DNA of 64,000 bases from Thermococcus sp. JdFR-02 (GTDB lineage Archaea; Methanobacteriota_B; Thermococci; Thermococcales; Thermococcaceae): positions 32,001 through 96,000 of the forward strand of contig MTLP01000007.1 in NCBI GenBank assembly GCA_002009975.1. Direction: 5' to 3'. Under the pieces are notes generated by a model. It made no database searches, had not been told where the DNA came from, and saw only the letters and a program-made list of their open reading frames with translations. This document shows positions 30,186-39,306 of the stretch, piece after piece. Numbering within the stretch: the first letter of the stretch is position 1; every line of letters begins with the position of its first letter. Position numbers and translations under genes: made by a program.

Positions 30186-30983
30186 GTGAGGGATGAGTTT
30201 AAAATTATTGTTGAGTTTTTTAATGTTCAGCGGAGTGTTTTCTTTAGTTATCGTTGGGATGTTGTGAGCTACTTTATTGGGCTTTTGATTCAGATCATGG
30301 TCATGGGGATTTTTGCGAGTCTTGTAAGTATAAATGTAAACATTGCAAAATATGGGACCACGAGTTTTCTCCAATTCTTTCTTATTGGTTTTATTGTGCA
30401 CAACCTAATTTTCCTTCCAAGGGGGAGTTTGTCAAGATTTATTGTTGGACGGAGTTTTCCAATGCTTTATGCTTCACCCACAAGTATGCTCACAATATTT
30501 CTCGGAGTAAACGCATGGAACATTGTATGGAGCTTGCTAATTTTAGCTTTAATAACTACGACTTTTGTCCTCTTTTACAAATTAACACTTCACTTGAACT
30601 CTGGAGCAATATTGGTAATTTTGAGCGGTTTTGTTCTAATATTTGCCCTTGATTTGTTCTCTGCGGGATTTAAGGTTGCCACAAAGGCAAGACAAGACCC
30701 CTTAAACTGGTTTTTAAACATTACTTCACAACTTGTGAGTGGCTTGTACTTCCCACCTGAAGCTCTCCCTTGGTGGCTTCAACCAATATCAAAAATCCAT
30801 CCTGAAAGATATATTCTTGAAATGGCGCGCTTAACAATGGGAGGAGGATACTCCCTAAGCCAGATTTATCCAAGCTTAATCAACTTAACTATAACCACCT
30901 TGGCAATGCTCCTTATTGGGTATATAACCTTTAAATGGGGTGTGAAAAAAGCTATGCAACTTGGAACCCTCGGTCACGTTTGA
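30186..30983 (+). CDS. ABC-2 type exporter permease
   Basis: 6 TM; SGLYFPPEALPWWLQPISKIHP motif. Confidence 0.9.
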   Translation: MRDEFKIIVEFFNVQRSVFFSYRWDVVSYFIGLLIQIMVMGIFASLVSINVNIAKYGTTSFLQFFLIGFIVHNLIFLPRGSLSRFIVGRSFPMLYASPTSMLTIFLGVNAWNIVWSLLILALITTTFVLFYKLTLHLNSGAILVILSGFVLIFALDLFSAGFKVATKARQDPLNWFLNITSQLVSGLYFPPEALPWWLQPISKIHPERYILEMARLTMGGGYSLSQIYPSLINLTITTLAMLLIGYITFKWGVKKAMQLGTLGHV

Positions 30984-30992
30984 GGTGATAAA

Positions 30993-31985
30993 ATGATTGA
31001 AGCAATGAACTTGACAAAGTATTATCCACCACCATTCAAGGGTTTCCTCGATTTAAAGAGTCTTAAAGACTTCTTTGGAGCACCAAGAGAAGAAATCCCG
31101 GCTCTGATTGATTTGAACTTCAAAGTTAAAGAGGGCGAAATTTTTGGACTTTTAGGTCCCAATGGAGCTGGGAAGACCACTTTTTGTAAAATTGCCAATG
31201 GATTATTACTTCCTACTCGAGGGCAATTACTAATTAATGGTTATGATAGCGTCAAAGAGCACAAAAAAGTTGCCAAAGATATGTTTACAGTTTTCACTGG
31301 GGAAAGAGATATGTGGGGAATTTTTCAATGGCGCTTAAGTATTTACAAGAATTTACGCTTTATTGCGCGTTTGTGGAAAGTATCTGAGAGTGAAATTAAT
31401 AAGCGGATAAATTATGCTCTGGATTTGCTGAATTTAAAAGAGAAAAGGAATGAGTGGTATCAAAAGCTTTCGGCAGGGATGAAGCAGAAGGTGTATATTG
31501 CTTCCGCATTAGTAATCCAACCAAAAGTCCTTATTTTAGACGAGCCAACAGTGTTTTTGGACATTATAACTAAGAGTGAGATTCACAATGCGATTTTTGA
31601 ACTTGTGAAAGAATTTGGGACTACTGTTATTCTGACCACGCACGATTTGCATGAAGCTGAGAAGTTAAGTGATAGGGTTCTGCTTTTCAGCAAGAAGCCA
31701 ATTCTTGAAGGAAAGCCTGAAGAAATTAGCAAAAGACTTGAAGTTGAGTTCGATAAAAAGGTTGTTGCTCTTGTTAAGGGGAATGTTAAGTGTGATTTTG
31801 GGTTTAAAGTGCAGTGCTTCTCTAAGGACAATGTTACGAGGATTGTAGCTTACTTACGAGAAAGTGAAGTTGCTCAGTTCTTAGATGGATTATCTAAATA
31901 CAAAATTCTAAGTCTTAAAGTTGAAGAATTAACACTCGAAGATGCATTTCTATTAATTTTCAATCATTCTAAAAAAGTAGAATAG
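30993..31985 (+). CDS. ABC exporter ATP-binding subunit
   Basis: GPNGAGKTT, LSAGMKQK, ILDEPT, TTH. Confidence 0.93.
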   Translation: MIEAMNLTKYYPPPFKGFLDLKSLKDFFGAPREEIPALIDLNFKVKEGEIFGLLGPNGAGKTTFCKIANGLLLPTRGQLLINGYDSVKEHKKVAKDMFTVFTGERDMWGIFQWRLSIYKNLRFIARLWKVSESEINKRINYALDLLNLKEKRNEWYQKLSAGMKQKVYIASALVIQPKVLILDEPTVFLDIITKSEIHNAIFELVKEFGTTVILTTHDLHEAEKLSDRVLLFSKKPILEGKPEEISKRLEVEFDKKVVALVKGNVKCDFGFKVQCFSKDNVTRIVAYLRESEVAQFLDGLSKYKILSLKVEELTLEDAFLLIFNHSKKVE

Positions 31986-32064: not shown

Positions 32065-33522
32065 ATGAAAGCAAATGATAAAAAGCTCGAGATTTATATA
32101 TTTACAGTTGAAGATAAGTATTTTCTCCTTTCTCCTCCAACTGGTATAGTTTTTGAAATTGATAGAAAAACTTACGAGTTTTGTAATACTGTTAGTGTAT
32201 TCGGGTGGAGTAAGAGTAAGGAAGAATTTGTGAGGAAATATTCTGAGAGTGATTGGGATGCTTTAATTAGTGAGATTAAGACTGATGAAACTTTGAACAA
32301 AATCTTTTTTGGAGAAAAACCTAAGCCCAACCTTCCTCTTGGAAGTATTAAACCAAAACTCTCAAGCTTATCTTTGAATGTTATGGAGGATTGCAATTTC
32401 GCTTGTGTTTACTGCTATGGTAACGCAGGCACTTATAACACTCCAAACACTAAGATGGATTTTGAAACTGGGAAGAAAGCCATTGATCTTCTTATAAAGG
32501 AAGGAAAGCAAGTTGTTAATATCAGCTTTTTTGGTGGAGAGCCTTTGCTTAACTTTGCACTTATTCAAAAGCTCGTTGCTTACGCTAAAGAAAAGGCTAA
32601 GGAGCATAATAAAACCATCAACTTCAGCATAACAACAAATGGTTATCTTATTAACGATGAAGTTATTGACTTCTTCCTTGAGAACAACTTCACGGTAACA
32701 TTGAGTTTTGATGGCCCAAAGGAAATTCAGGATTATAACAGATCTCTGAGGAGTGGTGCTGGAACTTTTGATGTTGTTTCAAAGAATGCCAAGAAAATGC
32801 TTGAAAAAGGAGTCAAGGTTAGTGTTAGGACCACAATCTTACCAAGCCAGCTTGAAAAGTACTATGACATCTACCGCTTTTTTGTAGATTTCGGGTTTAG
32901 AAGTGTCCACTTGGAAATGGCAACAATAAACGAAAAGCCCACGGAAGAACACATTGCGATAATCAAGGAGGCTCTGGAAAAAATTGCAAAGGATGAGTTA
33001 GGACACTACAAGGAAAAGGGGATAGTTTACACTAAGTTAAGGGATATAGTGAGGAGCATCTACTCCACGGCAGTCAAACAGTATCCTTGTGGTGCAGCGA
33101 GGACTTACTTTGGAGTCTCTGCTGATGGAACTATCTACCCCTGTCACAGATTTGTTGGAATGAGCAATTTTATTGTTGGAGGTGTTGATGACTTCAAGTG
33201 GGAGAACGAGTTTATTCAAAAGATCCTCCACTTCACTGTGGACAAGAGACCCTACTGTAGGGATTGTCCAATAAGGATGTACTGTGGAGGAGGATGTATT
33301 TACAACAACTTCTACTATAATGGCGACATTTTCAAGCCTGATGCGTTTCATTGTGCGTATATGGAAGAGTTGTTTAAGTGGGGTGTTTGGCTCTACTCAA
33401 ACCTTGATGAGGATTGGTTGAATAAGGCTTTTTCACGCTCACCCCGTGAAGGGGTGAGGGATGAGACACAAGCCGATGAATCCGAACAAAAAAGAAAGGG
33501 AGGTGATGGAAGTGGCGTTTAG
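32065..33522 (+). CDS. RRE + radical SAM + SPASM peptide maturase (PapB-like, putative ranthipeptide synthase)
   Basis: N-terminal PqqD/RRE-like beta-beta-beta-alpha segment (YIFTVEDKYFLLSPPTGIVFEID); CNFACVYC; FFGGEPLL; SITTNG; SPASM CGAAR...IYPCHRF...CRDCPIRMYCGGGC...HC; adjacent Cys-rich peptides. Confidence 0.88.
   Translation: MKANDKKLEIYIFTVEDKYFLLSPPTGIVFEIDRKTYEFCNTVSVFGWSKSKEEFVRKYSESDWDALISEIKTDETLNKIFFGEKPKPNLPLGSIKPKLSSLSLNVMEDCNFACVYCYGNAGTYNTPNTKMDFETGKKAIDLLIKEGKQVVNISFFGGEPLLNFALIQKLVAYAKEKAKEHNKTINFSITTNGYLINDEVIDFFLENNFTVTLSFDGPKEIQDYNRSLRSGAGTFDVVSKNAKKMLEKGVKVSVRTTILPSQLEKYYDIYRFFVDFGFRSVHLEMATINEKPTEEHIAIIKEALEKIAKDELGHYKEKGIVYTKLRDIVRSIYSTAVKQYPCGAARTYFGVSADGTIYPCHRFVGMSNFIVGGVDDFKWENEFIQKILHFTVDKRPYCRDCPIRMYCGGGCIYNNFYYNGDIFKPDAFHCAYMEELFKWGVWLYSNLDEDWLNKAFSRSPREGVRDETQADESEQKRKGGDGSGV
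33421..33511 (+). repeat. Precursor-upstream element, copy 1 (overlaps the rSAM 3' end)
   Basis: Similar to 36631-36704; contains hairpin CTCACCCC-gtgaa-GGGGTGAG. Confidence 0.6.
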
Positions 33523-33664
33523 AAAACTGAACAAAGAAAGAGAGACAATATCACCACTATGTGCGTGGGTTGATATCTGCATAGACTACGACTATTGTGT
33601 TTGGGACGATTGTGGAAAGTTTGATGTATGTATATATGACAACTGCCTTGCGGATACTGATTAA
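33512..33664 (+). CDS. RiPP precursor peptide 1 (50 aa; 6 Cys, 9 Asp)
   Basis: GGAGGTGA SD, GTG start: MAFRKLNKERETISPL-CAWVDICIDYDYCVWDDCGKFDVCIYDNCLADTD. Confidence 0.85.
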   Translation: MAFRKLNKERETISPLCAWVDICIDYDYCVWDDCGKFDVCIYDNCLADTD

Positions 33665-33688: not shown

Positions 33689-33862
33689 ATGTTTAAAAAG
33701 CTTAATAATAAAAGCCAAAAGACCCAACCATCTCCTGAATGGTGCATTGACATCTGTATAGGTGGCGATGTATGTGGAGCATGTGATACAGCATGTGATC
33801 AGAATGACAGTTGTATTACAGATGGATGTATATTTGACTGTTATTTAGACATTACACCCTGA
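33689..33862 (+). CDS. RiPP precursor peptide 2 (57 aa; 8 Cys, 8 Asp)
   Basis: GGAGGTG SD, ATG: MFKKLNNKSQKTQPSPEW-CIDICIGGDVCGACDTACDQNDSCITDGCIFDCYLDITP. Confidence 0.88.
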   Translation: MFKKLNNKSQKTQPSPEWCIDICIGGDVCGACDTACDQNDSCITDGCIFDCYLDITP

Positions 33863-33905: not shown

Positions 33906-34793
33906 ATGGTGAGGAGAATGCTCAGAGTATTCATCAAAAAAGCACTGTATGATAGAACTGTAATTCTTGGTGTTTGTCTTTTTCTCATATTCTACTTTAA
34001 TATCCTTTTGGGAGTGAAGAACTCTACTTATTTTGAAAGCTGGCAATACTCAAAACTTGTTCTTAACTATTTTAGCGACATGCCTTCAATAGTTATTTTA
34101 ATCTTTGCAAGCATTTGGGGTTCAAGAAGCATAAACACCGAGTCTTTGCCATTGATTTTAAGTAAACCCCTTTCTCGATATAATTACTTACTTACAAAAG
34201 CCATGTCCTCTTTTTTATTCTTTTTAGCTTTGTCTCTCTTGTTATATCCAATTTTATTACTTTCTTCTCTTGCTTTTGGGACCTCTATCAGCTTAAACCT
34301 GAGCTTTGTACTAATATTTGCTCTATTTCTCTCTGCTTTCTATTCTATTGGTATGCTCATCTCAACTATAACTTCTCCTAAAAAAGCTCCTGTAGTAGCA
34401 CTCATTATAGTTATCTTATTTGTATACCTAGAATCTACATTTCACCATACAATTGAAAAAGAAGTGCTGAGGATGTACAATATTACCCAATATGATATGG
34501 CAAGATATTTTGCTACTAACGAAAAAATCTTTTGGAAAATTTCAAGTGACATATTTGCTCTTAAAGTCAAGAAAAGCTGGGAACAGTTTTTTAATCCTTT
34601 CACCCACTTTAGAATTTTGTTAACATATATAATGAGCAATGGAAACTTATGGAATTACTACCATTCTCCTGAAATATATTCTATATTCCAAATGCCTATA
34701 AAAGCGTGGAGAGCCTTGGGTTTTCTAATTCTCGATACATTATTACCATTAGTTATAACATTAAAAATCTTTAATCAAAAAGATTTAAGGTGA
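33906..34793 (+). CDS. ABC-2 type exporter permease
   Basis: LILSKPLSRYNYLLTK motif; C-terminal FNQKDLR. Confidence 0.85.
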   Translation: MVRRMLRVFIKKALYDRTVILGVCLFLIFYFNILLGVKNSTYFESWQYSKLVLNYFSDMPSIVILIFASIWGSRSINTESLPLILSKPLSRYNYLLTKAMSSFLFFLALSLLLYPILLLSSLAFGTSISLNLSFVLIFALFLSAFYSIGMLISTITSPKKAPVVALIIVILFVYLESTFHHTIEKEVLRMYNITQYDMARYFATNEKIFWKISSDIFALKVKKSWEQFFNPFTHFRILLTYIMSNGNLWNYYHSPEIYSIFQMPIKAWRALGFLILDTLLPLVITLKIFNQKDLR

Positions 34794-34797
34794 TAAC

Positions 34798-35715
34798 ATG
34801 TGGTCGTTCAAGCTTGAAGCAAAGAACAGCTTGAGAACTAAAAAGTTTTGGTTAACAATAGTGCTGATCTCTCTAGTGTACGTTATAGCCTTTAGGGAGA
34901 TAAAGGACAACCTTAAAGCTACTACTAACCTCCAGGGGGTGTTGACTTTCAGTCTAATAGGCTATATACTTGCGAGTGCTTTTTTGTTCATAGGGTTATA
35001 TGTCCTTATTTTAGGAGCTACATCAATCAACGGTGACCTTGAAAATGGAACGGTTCAGATATCCTTAAGCAAGCCTGTTAATAGAATACAGTATCTAATC
35101 GGAAAGTTTCTTGGACAGTTCGTTTCAATCATTGTTGCACTTCTTTTCGCTACACTCCTTTCTCTTGTCATAACAAGATACTACAGCATATCCATAACAG
35201 TCAAAATAATTTCTGATCTTACAATAGCCAATGCTCTCACGCTCCTCTCAATGCTTCAGCTACTCGCACTCGGCTTACTTATCTCAACCTTCATTCGCTC
35301 TCAGAACACTGCTATCAGCGTTGTTCTCATCCTCTTCCTTGTTACCGGATTGGTGGCACCTCAAATAGTCGACAGCATGGCAAAAGACAGAGCTAGAGAA
35401 GAGTTCCACATCAAAACACCTGAAGATGCCATGAAGATGCCTGTTGAGGAACGCAACAAGTATCACCAACGTCAAATAGAACTCCAGAAGGAGTACCACT
35501 TAAGATACCTGTTCTACATTCCTCAAGTGCTCCTTGAGGATATAGTGATAGATATGCAGAGAACCACTTTTATCAAGGGGAAGATCAGAACAGAGTATAT
35601 CAGGGCTTGGGACGCCATCAAGAACAATCCTTTGAGGGTCTCTCTTCTTGTGGGACTAACCTTGGTCTATCTAATCATGGCAGTTTTTCGCTTTGTTAGA
35701 ATGGACCTGAGGTGA
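34798..35715 (+). CDS. ABC-2 type exporter permease
   Basis: DLENGTVQISLSKPVNRIQYLIGKFLG; C-terminal FVRMDLR. Confidence 0.88.
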   Translation: MWSFKLEAKNSLRTKKFWLTIVLISLVYVIAFREIKDNLKATTNLQGVLTFSLIGYILASAFLFIGLYVLILGATSINGDLENGTVQISLSKPVNRIQYLIGKFLGQFVSIIVALLFATLLSLVITRYYSISITVKIISDLTIANALTLLSMLQLLALGLLISTFIRSQNTAISVVLILFLVTGLVAPQIVDSMAKDRAREEFHIKTPEDAMKMPVEERNKYHQRQIELQKEYHLRYLFYIPQVLLEDIVIDMQRTTFIKGKIRTEYIRAWDAIKNNPLRVSLLVGLTLVYLIMAVFRFVRMDLR

Positions 35716-36635
35716 CAATTGTGTTGAGAATTGAGAATCTAATCAAGATTTACAAGGATATTAGGGCTTTGGATGGCTTGAATTTGGAGGTTAAAGAGGG
35801 GCAGATTTACGGATTTTTAGGACCTAACGGTGCCGGGAAGACAACAACAATCCTGAGCATTCTTGGAATGATATTCCCGCAGAAGGGCAGGATAGAAGTG
35901 CTAGGTGAGGAAGTCTTCAACGGAAAGTTCGATGAAGAGAAGCTCATCAAAGTCAAGTACATGATTGGTTACATGCCTGAGGACGCTACACTCTGGGATT
36001 TTTTAACGCCAATGCAGACGCTTGACATTATTGGTGAAGCTTTTAAAATGTCCAAAGCAGAGAGGCAAAAACGCTCAGAGGAGCTTTTAAAGCTCGTCGG
36101 CTTATGGGACGTCAAAGATAAAAAAGTTGGCAAGCTCTCAAAAGGAATGCGCCAGCGTTTATTGTTGGCACAGGCGCTCATTAATGATCCAGAACTTTTA
36201 ATCTTGGACGAGCCCATGAGCGGATTAGATCCAAAAGGTATTGCTGAATTCAAAGAGTTGATTAGGCAGTTCAACAAGGAAGGAAAAACAGTCTTCTTTT
36301 CATCGCACATCTTAGCTCATGTCGAAGAAATCTGCGACACTGTTGGCGTTATTGTTAAAGGAAAGCTGAGAGCCCAAGACTCTTTGGACAATATTAAAAA
36401 AGAGTTCTTAAGACGGGCTGGCCACACGATACTGATTGAGACAAACAAACCCATCCATATAGATCTTGAGGGAGTCAAAGTTGAGGTTATTGGTACTAAT
36501 AAATACAGGATTATCACAAGCAAAGATGTTAGGGAAGAACTCCACGACTTGATAGCAGTTCAAAACGCAAAAATTCTAACAATGCAGATTAAAGAGCCGA
36601 GCTTGGAAGAAATATTCCTAAAAATGATCGAATAA
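35712..36635 (+). CDS. ABC exporter ATP-binding subunit
   Basis: GPNGAGKTT, LSKGMRQR, ILDEPMSGLDP, SSH. Confidence 0.93.
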   Translation: MTIVLRIENLIKIYKDIRALDGLNLEVKEGQIYGFLGPNGAGKTTTILSILGMIFPQKGRIEVLGEEVFNGKFDEEKLIKVKYMIGYMPEDATLWDFLTPMQTLDIIGEAFKMSKAERQKRSEELLKLVGLWDVKDKKVGKLSKGMRQRLLLAQALINDPELLILDEPMSGLDPKGIAEFKELIRQFNKEGKTVFFSSHILAHVEEICDTVGVIVKGKLRAQDSLDNIKKEFLRRAGHTILIETNKPIHIDLEGVKVEVIGTNKYRIITSKDVREELHDLIAVQNAKILTMQIKEPSLEEIFLKMIE

Positions 36636-36704: not shown

Positions 36705-36829
36705 ATGAAGTTGGAGATTTTAAACAAAGAAGAAACCCTTAAAGGAATGCTACCAAACTCCTGCCTACTCCAGCAGACTGGATTTGTTGGTGGCTAGAGG
36801 ACTACTGTGATCTTCACGAGCCATATTGA
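36705..36829 (+). pseudogene. Third RiPP precursor, frameshifted
   Basis: GGGAGGTG SD; MKLEILNKEETLKGMLPNSC, then the -1 frame reads PTPADWICWWLEDYCDLHEPY*. Confidence 0.6.
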
Positions 36830-36929: not shown

Positions 36930-37976
36930 TTGAACCAGAGAGTATTTTTAACAAGTGTTAAAAGAATATCAGAGATTGCAATAATCTCTATTTTAATTCT
37001 GCTTATCCTGACATCACTGACTGTTGAAGCCAAGAAGAAAACCCTTATTAACAATAACATGAACCTGCCTCTTTTCTTATGGTACGCTTCAAACAAAACT
37101 GCACAAGAGGAAGCCAAAGTACTTGGAATGAATCAAACAGAGTACTTAGAGTACGTAATCCTTAGAAAATTCGGTTTGAACAAACCGCTCTATGTCTTGA
37201 TTCCCCAACAAATTAAAAGCGCGATAACTTATATTGGGCAGAATAGGGAGTATATACTCATCTCCACTTTTAGAACTGTTCTTCTTCTCCTACTCGTTCA
37301 AGGTTTTATCTTGGTATTTGGTCTGCTCATTGGAGTTCTAGCTGGTTATAAAAGAGACGGCTTTTTGGATAAGCTAGTTTCAACATTGGCGCCTGTGTCA
37401 AACGGAGTTCCCAGCTGGTGGATTGCGGGCATGTTACTCCTTATTCTTTCTCTCAAATTTAATCTATTTCCCGCTTCGGGATATATGTCAATACCTCCAA
37501 AGACGGGTCTTTATTATTATTATCTTGATATTGCTAAGCACTTAGTTCTCCCATTTTTAGCCCTCTTTCTAGCTCGTTTCTGGGAATATGCTTTTATTGT
37601 TAGGAGCTTAATTTTTGAGGAGTTCAAAAGGGATTATATACTCGTTGCTGAAGCTAAAGGTGTTCCAAAAAAGAAAATTTTATGGGGACATGCCCTAAGA
37701 AATATCCTTCCCTCATTCCTTACCTTCACAACATACAACTTTCTCGACCTGCTCACAAGTGTCTTTGTGATTGATATAGTTTTCGATTTAAGAGGACTTG
37801 GGACTTTGTTAAGGATAAGCTTTTTCAGAACACTTGTAAGTGCTAGGGGAATTTTCACAACATTGAGACCAGAGCTTTTCCTTTCTATTTGTATTATTAT
37901 CATGATCCTGTACTTGGTTGTATCCGCAATCTTAGAGACCCTCTACATTTACCTCGATCCAAGAATTGGGGGATAA
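36930..37976 (+). CDS. DppB/OppB-like ABC permease
   Basis: GVPSWWIA and DYILVAEAKGV (EAA loop) motifs; YLDPRI C-terminus. Confidence 0.85.
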   Translation: MNQRVFLTSVKRISEIAIISILILLILTSLTVEAKKKTLINNNMNLPLFLWYASNKTAQEEAKVLGMNQTEYLEYVILRKFGLNKPLYVLIPQQIKSAITYIGQNREYILISTFRTVLLLLLVQGFILVFGLLIGVLAGYKRDGFLDKLVSTLAPVSNGVPSWWIAGMLLLILSLKFNLFPASGYMSIPPKTGLYYYYLDIAKHLVLPFLALFLARFWEYAFIVRSLIFEEFKRDYILVAEAKGVPKKKILWGHALRNILPSFLTFTTYNFLDLLTSVFVIDIVFDLRGLGTLLRISFFRTLVSARGIFTTLRPELFLSICIIIMILYLVVSAILETLYIYLDPRIGG

Positions 37977-37980
37977 GTAA

Positions 37981-39306
37981 ATGATTGAAGAAAAATCCAT
38001 TAAATATGGTTTCCTGATCATAACCTCTTTCATCCTTTTATCTCTCCTAACTCCCTTTATAGTTCCTGAGGAAAGGGTTAAGTACTGGAACGATGGTAAT
38101 TACTGGATTAAGAATCCTAAACTTGCGCCACCCAAGTGGTACAACTATTTTACAAGCAAAGACAGAACACCAACTGAGATTCTCACTCCAAAACAAAAGA
38201 AAATTGAGAATTTTAATTCTTTAAGGATGTACAATTTCTCCTTTGAATATGACTACACTTATTATGTTCCTCCTCAAGATATTTGGATAAATCTTAATGT
38301 TAATTCGAGCAATGCACTTTATGAGGTTTCCTTTATCCGTCCAGATAGGATCAATATTCTGCTCCTTCAAGGGGAAGTCCAAAAGGGAGAAATCTCCCTA
38401 AAAACACGTCAAGAAGTCAGAAAAACTGTCATGAACTTTGCAATGGAGAAGCTTGATGTAAAGACATTCAACCAGCTCACCTTCAATCCCTTTGAATACC
38501 TTTTTTCATCCAAAAGCGGAAATCCTCTGAAGGGTGTTTATAGAATTGATGTTGTTATTTACTCTTTTAATCAGAGTGATGTTATTGAAGAGCCGAGCAT
38601 TAGAATTGTGGGAAGTTGCTATGGGATTTTAGGGACTGATAATATGGGAAGAGACTTATTTGTGGGTTTTATATGGGCTATGAGGAATACACTATTTTTA
38701 GCTTTATTTGTCGCTCTCTTCACAGTGTTTTTTGGAACACTCTTTGGTTTAATAACTGGTTACATAGATTCAAGATTAAGTAAAGCTCTTGAATTTGTAA
38801 ACAAAGTTTTCCTTGCTCTTCCTGTTCTTCCAACTGCTTTAATCATAACATATCTCATCTCGGTTCAGAGTGTGGGTAAGAGCGTGGAGCTTTCAACATT
38901 TGAGTTTTCAATTATACTGAGTGCATTACTTTGGGGAAAACCTGCACGGAGTATAAAGGCAATTGTTGAACAAGAAAAGGTTCAAGAATACGTTACTGTT
39001 GCTGAAAGCATTGGTGCAAGCAAATTCTATATTCTAAGAAGACATATATTGAAAAAAGTCCTCCCTTACTCTTTTGCAGTTCTCTCAATAACAGTTCCAA
39101 AGGTCATTGTTCTTATTTCGCTTTTTGGATTTTTTGGTATCGTTCCTGGGATTAATTGGGGCTCTTTCATGGCTGAAGCATTGGAAAGGGGTGGATTTTA
39201 TGGTGGTGTTTGGTGGTGGATAATTCCACCAGGATTAGCAATAGCCTTGATTGGGATTGGCTTCGTCTTGATAAATAAGGGAATAGAAAAATGGTTAGGA
39301 ATATAG
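37981..39306 (+). CDS. DppC/OppC-like ABC permease with a large extracellular insertion
   Basis: LGTDNMGRDL, EYVTVAESIGAS, WWWIIPPG. Confidence 0.85.
   Translation: MIEEKSIKYGFLIITSFILLSLLTPFIVPEERVKYWNDGNYWIKNPKLAPPKWYNYFTSKDRTPTEILTPKQKKIENFNSLRMYNFSFEYDYTYYVPPQDIWINLNVNSSNALYEVSFIRPDRINILLLQGEVQKGEISLKTRQEVRKTVMNFAMEKLDVKTFNQLTFNPFEYLFSSKSGNPLKGVYRIDVVIYSFNQSDVIEEPSIRIVGSCYGILGTDNMGRDLFVGFIWAMRNTLFLALFVALFTVFFGTLFGLITGYIDSRLSKALEFVNKVFLALPVLPTALIITYLISVQSVGKSVELSTFEFSIILSALLWGKPARSIKAIVEQEKVQEYVTVAESIGASKFYILRRHILKKVLPYSFAVLSITVPKVIVLISLFGFFGIVPGINWGSFMAEALERGGFYGGVWWWIIPPGLAIALIGIGFVLINKGIEKWLGI

What the first reader, a model, noticed from the sequence alone, without database searches (positions are those of the whole stretch)
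33512..33664. Precursor 1: four tandem CX3D plus two CX2D motifs, rich in aromatic residues
Core CAWVD-I-CIDYD-Y-CVWDD-CGKFD-V-CIYD-N-CLAD-TD. Every Cys has an Asp 3-4 residues downstream, and five of six Cys also sit in a D-x-C register. This predicts up to six in-line rings (-12 Da). The true start is probably GTG 33512 after GGAGGTGA, not ATG 33461. W-x-D triplets (WVD, WDD) leave aromatic cyclophane (triceptide-type) chemistry as an alternative.
Basis: partly seen in the sequence, partly recalled or inferred. Interest (0 to 1): 0.75.

Follow-up and report, generated by a model that had tools for sequence, protein, structure and literature searches.

The report
Archaeal freyrasin-like stapled peptide precursor
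This tiny gene in a Thermococcales archaeon encodes a conserved cysteine/aspartate-rich peptide that the neighbouring radical-SAM enzyme likely staples into up to six small sulfur-bridged rings before likely export, making it an untested archaeal member of a known peptide class that a published table already flags in a related species.

Summary
The 50-codon ORF at 33512-33664 lies in a Thermococcales genome, overlaps the stop of an RRE/radical-SAM/SPASM gene, and is followed by a second precursor and ABC-2 export genes. Enzyme orthologues (68-87% identical) occur in 8 of 98 other genomes of the order, each followed by precursors with the same leader and alternating Cys/Asp cores. The GTG start is supported: in 7 of 10 loci a stop closes the frame 3-4 codons before the leader Phe. 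The enzyme matches P. polymyxa PapB at 6 of 6 published catalytic-proximity positions, including the Arg372 equivalent, and has a seven-Cys SPASM domain. In-line Cys-S-to-Asp-Cbeta rings (-12 Da) are therefore the likely product. The cyclophane alternative is poorly supported: 15 of 20 precursors lack W-x-D. Ring 3 is ambiguous (D32 or D33). The enzyme scores below the PapB family cut-off and forms its own clade. The Precord 2023 supplement already lists the T. indicus orthologue as 'PapA-like', and this scan noted the family before in another Thermococcus genome. Chemistry and function are untested.

The parts
33512..33664 (+). Precursor 1, 50 aa: leader (M)AFRKLNKERETISPL (16 aa) and a 34-aa core with six Cys and nine Asp (core net charge -8)
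   Evidence: identical in contigs of runs X1-X3 (X1 may be the source of this DNA)
33499..33506 (+). Shine-Dalgarno GGAGGTGA for precursor 1, inside the 3' end of the rSAM gene; 5-nt spacing to GTG 33512
   Evidence: 4-6 nt is the spacing in 44 of 51 SD-to-start pairs of long ORFs in this genome; equivalent SD in orthologues
33560..33661 (+). Core; predicted rings C17-D21, C23-D27, C29-D32 (or D33), C34-D38, C40-D43, C45-D48
   Evidence: D25 is Lys in the closest orthologue while D27 is kept; ring assignment is inference
32065..33522 (+). Radical SAM/SPASM maturase, 485 aa: N-terminal RRE-type fold (3 strands + 3 helices, residues 11-73), CxxxCxxC at 110-117, seven SPASM Cys (342, 360, 398, 401, 407, 411, 430), H361-R362. 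Its stop overlaps the precursor start.
33689..33862 (+). Precursor 2, 57 aa, same leader type (MFKKLN...P), eight Cys, includes C-x-x-C-D nested-type motifs
30186..30983 (+). ABC-2 type permease upstream of the maturase; a gene with a similar N-terminus lies upstream in several orthologous loci
   Evidence: (PF01061 below its cut-off)
30993..31985 (+). ABC ATPase (DrrA-like) upstream of the maturase
33906..34793 (+). ABC-2 family permease (PF12679)
34798..35715 (+). ABC-2 family permease (PF12679); 42-59% identical to the permease in orthologous loci
35712..36635 (+). ABC ATPase (DrrA-like); 71-83% identical in orthologous loci
36705..36829 (+). Frameshifted remnant of a precursor of a second Thermococcus rSAM-peptide family (leader in one frame, C-W-W-x-E-D tail in another), before OppB/OppC-like permeases at 36930-39306
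   Evidence: same letters in contigs of X1, X2, X3

Best explanation
[quoted passage not shown] Shown here: the ORF, its conservation, the operon, the enzyme's domains and active-site residues. Inferred by analogy with PapB/PapA: the RRE grips the F-K/R-K-L-N leader; a 5'-deoxyadenosyl radical removes an H from Asp C-beta while H361/R362 hold the carboxylate; the Cys thiol sits on the open iron of auxiliary cluster I and forms the C-S bond. No peptidase was found in the cluster, so the leader is either cut by an unlinked protease or kept. The biological role is inferred weakly. A strain-variable extracellular signal or recognition peptide is my first choice, since the core is strongly anionic (unlike membrane-lytic bacteriocins, from general knowledge), cores differ between near-identical enzymes, and peptide-uptake-like permeases follow in 5 of 9 genomes.
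For: Enzyme: best NCBIfam match is the PapB ranthipeptide maturase model (279.9 bits), then nif11, QhpD and SCIFF models. Best PDB sequence and fold match is CteB (E 2.6e-58; AlphaFold model pLDDT 91.5, TM 0.76-0.79). The six catalytic-proximity positions of Precord 2023 are Y118 F156 T190 S214 H361 R362, identical to the P. polymyxa PapB-family protein P0141 (Y127 F166 T200 S224 H371 R372); the six SCIFF maturases in the alignment have H-Q instead. PapB Arg372 is required for activity, and the His-Arg pair is modelled as binding the substrate carboxylate. QhpD (Cys-Asp/Glu) also has C-H-R, with Arg at 373. Substrate: 20 precursors from 10 loci were picked by leader pattern and at least 3 Cys, not by Asp. 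123 of 125 Cys have Asp/Glu before the next Cys. The last Cys has Asp at +3 to +5 in 20 of 20, while the first Cys has Asp at -2 in only 1 of 20 (Asp or Glu in 5 of 20). In 14 representatives, 80 of 89 Cys have D/E at +3..+5, against 45.9 in shuffles (0 of 10,000 as high). PapB accepts CXnD with n = 0-6 and Glu, and not the reversed order. The T. indicus orthologue (68.7% identical) and its precursor are classed 'PapA-like' by RODEO.
Against: No chemistry or expression data for this clade. The enzyme is below the PapB cut-off (279.9 < 340), is only about 30% identical to PapB and to SCIFF enzymes alike, and lies outside the PapB clade in a quick tree with unresolved deep branches. The His/Gln-Arg pair is common across this whole enzyme group, so it points to a carboxylate acceptor but does not fix the carbon attacked. 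I did not profile sactisynthase or cyclophane-synthase sequences at the six positions. The single strongest Asp position is -2 (61 of 125 Cys), ahead of +3 (55) and +4 (48) taken separately. CteB, the nearest structure, was reported to make a single link in a six-Cys SCIFF peptide, so fewer than six rings is possible. The 14 representatives are related, so shuffle counts overstate independence. P0141 is a cluster representative, not the exact characterised PapB accession.
Confidence: 0.8

Rival explanations
1. Same enzyme chemistry but a different wiring: the fixed D-x-C register is the ring (Asp i to Cys i+2), or rings are nested, or only some Cys are used.
For: D-x-C is the sharpest single register (47 of 75 internal Cys in 14 representatives, against 17.9 in shuffles). 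An upstream acceptor has precedent in NxxcA (Cys23-Asn20). Precursor 2 has C-x-x-C-D motifs like the nested ones of PapA. C29 has two candidate Asp.
Against: The termini favour Cys-then-Asp: last Cys has a downstream Asp in 20 of 20, first Cys has Asp at -2 in 1 of 20. PapA itself shows D-x-C (DAC, DNC, DFC in the supplement sequence) yet is linked CX3D, and PapB rejects the reversed order. D-x-C is what in-line rings with a one-residue spacer produce.
Confidence: 0.08
2. The product is a sactipeptide: Cys sulfur is linked to the alpha-carbon of Asp or another residue.
For: GggB and QmpB are sactisynthases that resemble ranthisynthases in sequence and in the proximity profile, so the profile is not decisive.
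Against: Six of six profile residues match PapB. Acceptors are almost always Asp/Glu, as for PapB and QhpD. The RumMC sactisynthase model scores 101 bits against 280.
Confidence: 0.06
3. The enzyme forms Trp-x-Asp C-C cyclophanes (triceptide type).
For: WVD and WDD are present, and OscB is known to link Trp C7 to Asp C-beta at i, i+2. The closest orthologue also has two W-x-D (one at a new place).
Against: 15 of 20 precursors lack W-x-D, 6 of 20 have no Trp, and one has no aromatic residue at all. W19 is Gly in L002. Cyclophane-synthase models score 78-115 bits. The SPASM domain has seven Cys and lacks the extra Cys of anSME; thioether-forming CteB has an open iron site while the C-C cyclase SuiB is fully ligated.
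Confidence: 0.02
4. The peptide is not a substrate of the enzyme but a disulfide-bonded or metal-binding mini-protein, or the locus is silent.
For: Six Cys and nine Asp could bind metals. There is no expression evidence.
Against: Every orthologous enzyme examined (10 of 10 loci) has a leader-bearing precursor overlapping its stop codon. Cys numbers vary from 5 to 8 and are often odd. The enzyme has an RRE-type domain, and two orthologues are listed as fused-RRE enzymes.
Confidence: 0.04

Closest known systems
Freyrasin system PapA/PapB of Paenibacillus polymyxa (ranthipeptide, six Cys-S-to-Asp-Cbeta links)
   Same: Six Cys each with a downstream Asp; about 50-aa precursor with a short K-x-x-N...P leader (PapA leader LKQINVIAGVKEPIRAYG); RRE/rSAM/SPASM enzyme with identical catalytic-proximity residues, including Arg372/Arg362.
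   Different: Enzyme about 30% identical, below the NF047865 cut-off and outside the PapB clade. Precursor 1 is predicted to have only in-line rings of mixed CX2D/CX3D size, whereas PapA has six CX3D motifs, some nested. Two or three precursors per locus in most genomes; archaeal host.
'PapA-like' singleton of Thermococcus indicus (rSAM QDA30352.1 / A0A4Y5SJG5) in the Precord et al. 2023 supplementary table (PMC10288494)
   Same: Same family: the enzyme is 100% identical to the G025 orthologue and 68.7% to the window enzyme; the listed precursor equals L009 precursor 1 and starts at the equivalent codon.
   Different: A one-row bioinformatic entry: no 'Thermococc', 'archaea' or 'PapA' in the main text, no chemistry, one precursor only. 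The core sequence differs from the window's.
CteB/CteA (SCIFF, thermocellin)
   Same: Best structural match; RRE + rSAM + seven-Cys SPASM.
   Different: His-Gln instead of His-Arg; Cys-Thr S-Cgamma link; the SCIFF model scores 255 against a cut-off of 425.
QhpD/QhpC of quinohemoprotein amine dehydrogenase
   Same: Cys-Asp/Glu thioethers; C-H-R motif.
   Different: The substrate is a 110-aa enzyme subunit in an operon with alpha and beta subunits; no such genes lie here.
CrpC/CrpA of Methanococcus voltae (TIGR04463; PMC13692751)
   Same: An archaeal RRE/SPASM enzyme shown to install ranthionine-type links.
   Different: Substrate is a 29-kDa repeat protein; the TIGR04463 model scores only 95.5 bits here.

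Membership tests
Ranthipeptides (RiPP class) | Short ribosomal precursor with leader and Cys-rich core beside the maturase | tested here: met
Ranthipeptides (RiPP class) | RRE + radical SAM + SPASM maturase of the CteB/PapB/QhpD group | tested here: met
   orthologues listed as fused RRE
Ranthipeptides (RiPP class) | Ranthisynthase-type catalytic-proximity residues and seven-Cys SPASM | tested here: met
   6 of 6 identical to PapB-family P0141; seven SPASM Cys; sactisynthase sequences were not profiled as a contrast
Ranthipeptides (RiPP class) | Thioether from Cys sulfur to a non-alpha carbon in the product | not testable with these tools
   needs MS/MS, desulfurisation and NMR
PapB equivalog (NF047865) / freyrasins in the strict sense | Score above the curated cut-off and placement in the PapB clade | tested here: not met
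   279.9 < 340 bits; outside the 12-row PapB branch (SH-aLRT 100) in a quick tree
PapB equivalog (NF047865) / freyrasins in the strict sense | Six CX3D motifs in the core | tested here: not met
   3-4 CX3D plus 2-3 CX2D here; CX2D to CX4D and Glu across the family
PapB equivalog (NF047865) / freyrasins in the strict sense | Arg372 equivalent | tested here: met
   R362 aligns with R372 of P0141
Triceptides (three-residue cyclophanes) | Conserved aromatic-x-acceptor triplets in the core | tested here: not met
   W-x-D in 5 of 20 precursors; any aromatic-x-D absent from 7 of 20
Triceptides (three-residue cyclophanes) | Maturase of a 3-CyFE family (OscB/GrrM, YhhB, AmcB) | tested here: not met
   78-91 bits against cut-offs of 310-445
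SCIFF / thermocellin | TIGR03974 maturase with His-Gln | tested here: not met
   254.8 < 425 bits; His-Arg
Sactipeptides | Sulfur-to-alpha-carbon links | not testable with these tools
   only indirect: RumMC model 101 bits; profile matches PapB

The most novel reading that the evidence does not exclude
Thermococcales run a diversity-generating peptide system. One conserved, heat-stable, ring-size-tolerant ranthisynthase staples interchangeable cores that are swapped between strains by recombination at the enzyme/precursor junction, producing strain-specific exported signals or recognition ligands that adjacent Opp-like permeases take back up. Basis: enzymes 86-94% identical carry at least five different core types, and G018 has a duplicated enzyme 3' end in front of an extra precursor of another strain's type. 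This would be peptide signalling by a ranthipeptide in hyperthermophilic archaea and would give a thermostable macrocyclase.
Probability: 0.2. Interest if true: 0.65.

Novelty: new member of a known kind. Interest (0 to 1): 0.32.

Why it matters
It extends PapA-like ranthipeptides to a small, patchily distributed clade in Thermococcales, an order of heat-loving archaea (general knowledge) in which my searches found no characterised ranthipeptide. Twenty natural precursors with CX2D to CX4D/E spacings suggest that the ring-size tolerance found for PapB in vitro is used in nature. PapB is being developed as a peptide macrocyclisation tool, so a homologue from a thermophile could be a useful heat-stable version. 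The reaction type is known, archaeal ranthionine formation has been shown in a methanogen, and an orthologue is already flagged in a supplement, so the surprise for a specialist is modest. The open question is the peptide's function.

Tried and rejected
Cyclophane chemistry, a SCIFF assignment, strict PapB membership and a QhpC-type enzyme subunit were considered and rejected or marked down (see rivals and membership). ATG 33461 as start was rejected: it exists in only 2 of 10 loci, and 7 of 10 have a stop 3-4 codons before the leader Phe. Pfam and NCBIfam give no match for precursor 1. No peptidase was found among the 10 cluster proteins or 13 further neighbours; 5 of those 13 had no Pfam match, and the genome was not searched for an unlinked protease. 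Expression: no RNA holder listed, which says nothing either way. The promoter/terminator scan was at shuffle level (21 vs 19.5; 6 vs 4.7) and is built for bacterial promoters. The genome-contig scan with P0070 returned 3 distant, unhelpful loci. The metagenome scan gave 3 loci; L040 and L041 nearly duplicate G089 and G057 and were left out of counts. The tree is the quick version; the careful search did not finish, 9 of 60 aligned rows were dropped (8 near-copies and the split-looking L055) and 20 added, and no donor or transfer direction is claimed. An enzyme-peptide complex prediction was not obtained, so leader binding is not tested. Hudson 2019 and Precord 2019 are not held, and the PDF supplement of Precord 2023 could not be read; these may mention Thermococcus loci.

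Full report
Observation. The window is G000:C5:32001-96000; close relatives of its proteins are named Thermococcus. Bases 33512-33664 encode a 50-aa peptide: a 16-aa leader and the core CAWVDICIDYDYCVWDDCGKFDVCIYDNCLADTD. All six Cys have Asp at +3 or +4, and five have Asp at -2. With Cys fixed and the rest shuffled 200,000 times, the first pattern appears in 0.9%, the second in 0.13% and both in 0.04%. Among 31,513 stop-to-stop frames of 30-120 aa in the genome, only this ORF and the next one reach six such Cys. Contigs of three public runs carry the ORF letter for letter; one may be the source of this assembly.

Surroundings. On the + strand lie an ABC-2 permease and ATPase (30186-31985), a 485-aa radical SAM/SPASM gene (32065-33522) whose stop overlaps the precursor start, precursor 1, precursor 2 (33689-33862), two ABC-2 permeases and an ATPase (33906-36635), then OppB/OppC-like permeases. 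No peptidase was seen among these or among 13 further neighbours, 5 of which have no Pfam match.

Relatives. Of 99 genomes of the order, 21 (G000 included) have a match to the enzyme at E <= 1e-30. Eight besides G000 carry an orthologue at 68-87% identity, and one further distinct metagenome locus was found (L042; L040 and L041 dropped as near-copies). From these 10 loci a leader pattern plus at least three Cys picked 20 precursors; precursors with other leaders would be missed. Start: in 7 of 10 loci the frame is closed by a stop 3-4 codons before the leader Phe, leaving a GTG or ATG just before Phe as the only start; an ATG equivalent to 33461 exists in 2 of 10. In L042 the codon is ATG. GGAGGTGA precedes GTG 33512 by 5 nt, within the genome's usual 4-6 nt. 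Coding: against L002, 12 of 49 codons differ synonymously, 20 non-synonymously and 17 not at all. All Cys and 8 of 9 Asp are kept, and 5 of 6 core aromatics are not. The lost Asp is D25, which favours C23-D27.

Ring logic. 123 of 125 Cys have Asp or Glu before the next Cys. Asp peaks at -2 (61), +3 (55) and +4 (48). In 14 representatives (still partly related), 80 of 89 Cys have D/E at +3 to +5 against a shuffle mean of 45.9, and 47 of 75 internal Cys are in D-x-C against 17.9; none of 10,000 shuffles reached either. The termini decide the likely polarity: the last Cys has Asp at +3 to +5 in 20 of 20, sometimes as the final residue, while the first Cys has Asp at -2 in 1 of 20 (Asp or Glu in 5). 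W-x-D is absent from 15 of 20 and Trp from 6 of 20 (all). I read this as in-line Cys-then-Asp rings, often spaced by one residue. On that register ring 3 would be C29-D32; PapB's preference for CX3D would give D33.

Enzyme. The best family model is PapB NF047865 at 279.9 bits, under its cut-off of 340; nif11, QhpD and SCIFF models give 277, 255 and 255, and cyclophane synthases 78-115. CteB is the best PDB match by sequence and by fold of an AlphaFold model (pLDDT 91.5). The model starts with three strands and three helices, the RRE layout (general knowledge). Precord 2023 defines six catalytic-proximity residues in CteB (F112, F152, T186, S210, H363, Q364), and the SCIFF protein P0020 shows exactly these in my alignment. 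The window enzyme has Y118, F156, T190, S214, H361, R362, identical to P. polymyxa P0141 (Y127, F166, T200, S224, H371, R372), as do all 9 other orthologues. Arg372 is needed for PapB activity (PMC9413430), and the His-Arg pair is modelled on the Asp carboxylate (PMC10739248, numbered 377/378 there). This pair is common in the wider group, so it supports a carboxylate acceptor, not family membership. The SPASM domain has seven Cys. In a quick 71-row tree the orthologues form one branch (95) apart from PapB (100) and SCIFF (100), with deep branches open.

Mechanism. Shown: genes, conservation, domains, residues. Inferred: leader bound by the RRE, H-abstraction from Asp C-beta, Cys activated on the open auxiliary cluster, up to six thioethers (-12.09 Da), export by ABC-2, leader cut elsewhere or kept. 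Confidence 0.8 for Cys-to-downstream-Asp ranthionines; the number of rings is less sure. For function I favour an exported, strain-variable signal or recognition peptide, weakly. The core has net charge -8. Eight enzymes 86-94% identical carry at least five core types. G018 has a second copy of the enzyme's 3' end in front of a third precursor resembling that of G063 and L042. Opp-like permeases follow in 5 of 9 genomes, one of the other four ending at a contig edge. Metal binding or antimicrobial action are not excluded.

What is known. The spreadsheet supplement of Precord 2023 (PMC10288494) lists A0A4Y5SJG5 and A0A100XX99 as fused-RRE enzymes and gives the T. indicus precursor as 'PapA-like', singleton, one of 23 such rows. 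That enzyme is 68.7% identical to the window's. Bacterial PapA-like leaders in the same table begin in a similar way (for example MFKRLN, MFEKIN). Searches for Thermococcus + ranthipeptide and for Thermococcus + SPASM + precursor peptide found no paper; two wider searches gave an archaeal ranthionine-forming enzyme acting on a protein (PMC13692751) and a preprint on subtilosin-like loci in Thermococcus, a different system. What I saw of each paper: PMC10288494, parts 2-3 of 8, passages and the xlsx supplement (its PDF supplement unreadable); PMC13692751, abstract, section 8 and passages; PMC9413430, PMC10739248, PMC8326336, PMC11002830, PMC12144867 and the preprint, passages only; Hudson 2019 and Precord 2019, nothing (not held). 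The library lacks most subscription papers.

Verdict. Real and conserved. It likely works like freyrasin but is not a strict PapB/freyrasin member. It is a new member of a known kind, already flagged bioinformatically in a relative and untested. Interest 0.32.

Noticed in passing
window 36705-36829 (+): A frameshifted precursor-like remnant with its own SD: a leader in one frame and a C-W-W-x-E-D-x-C tail in another, resembling precursors of a second Thermococcus rSAM family. The same letters stand in contigs of three runs, so it is unlikely to be an assembly slip. The search with the window enzyme found no second match in G000, so the partner enzyme seems lost.
   Followed up: partly
L010, L022, L023, L024 (G020, G019, G025, G018): A second rSAM family (about 39-41% identical, Gln-Arg at positions 5-6) whose stop overlaps a 48-50 aa peptide with CX4D/CX3E-D motifs and WW, followed directly by OppB/OppC-like permeases. 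Its precursor word was not in the Precord 2023 table.
   Followed up: partly
L011-L015, L025: A third rSAM family (37-46% identical over the matched part) followed by one to four 31-42 aa two-Cys peptides (C-x4-D-x2-C-E type) and a membrane protein; the copy in G042 has an in-frame TGA and that in G028 looks truncated.
   Followed up: no
L030 (G018), between the second and third precursor: About 100 bases of the maturase 3' end, with SD and start, are duplicated about 820 bases downstream in front of a third precursor that resembles those of G063 and L042; looks like a trace of cassette exchange.
   Followed up: partly
L044 (G130, same class, other family) 1237-2980: A related rSAM (His-Arg) followed by two peptides with very similar cores (for example C-P-W-V-D-I-C-T-I-D) and an x-R-L-N leader, so the peptide type reaches beyond Thermococcaceae.
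   Followed up: partly
L030, L032, L034, L033, L036 just after the precursors: The gene right after the precursors varies with locus: a 122-131 aa lipoprotein-like ORF in the three loci sharing one core type, and other membrane-like ORFs without Pfam match in two more. Candidates for cognate binding or immunity proteins.
   Followed up: partly
P0237, P0242: Two RefSeq calls of orthologues are 390-391 aa, while 480-483 aa calls exist on contigs of the same length; they probably miss the N-terminal RRE through a late start.
   Followed up: no
L027, L028, L017-L021, L026: Further distant rSAM genes in Thermococcales, some with small Cys-containing ORFs in front (39-aa two-Cys peptides; 33-34 aa peptides ending in a Cys cluster) and transporter-like genes beside them.
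   Followed up: no
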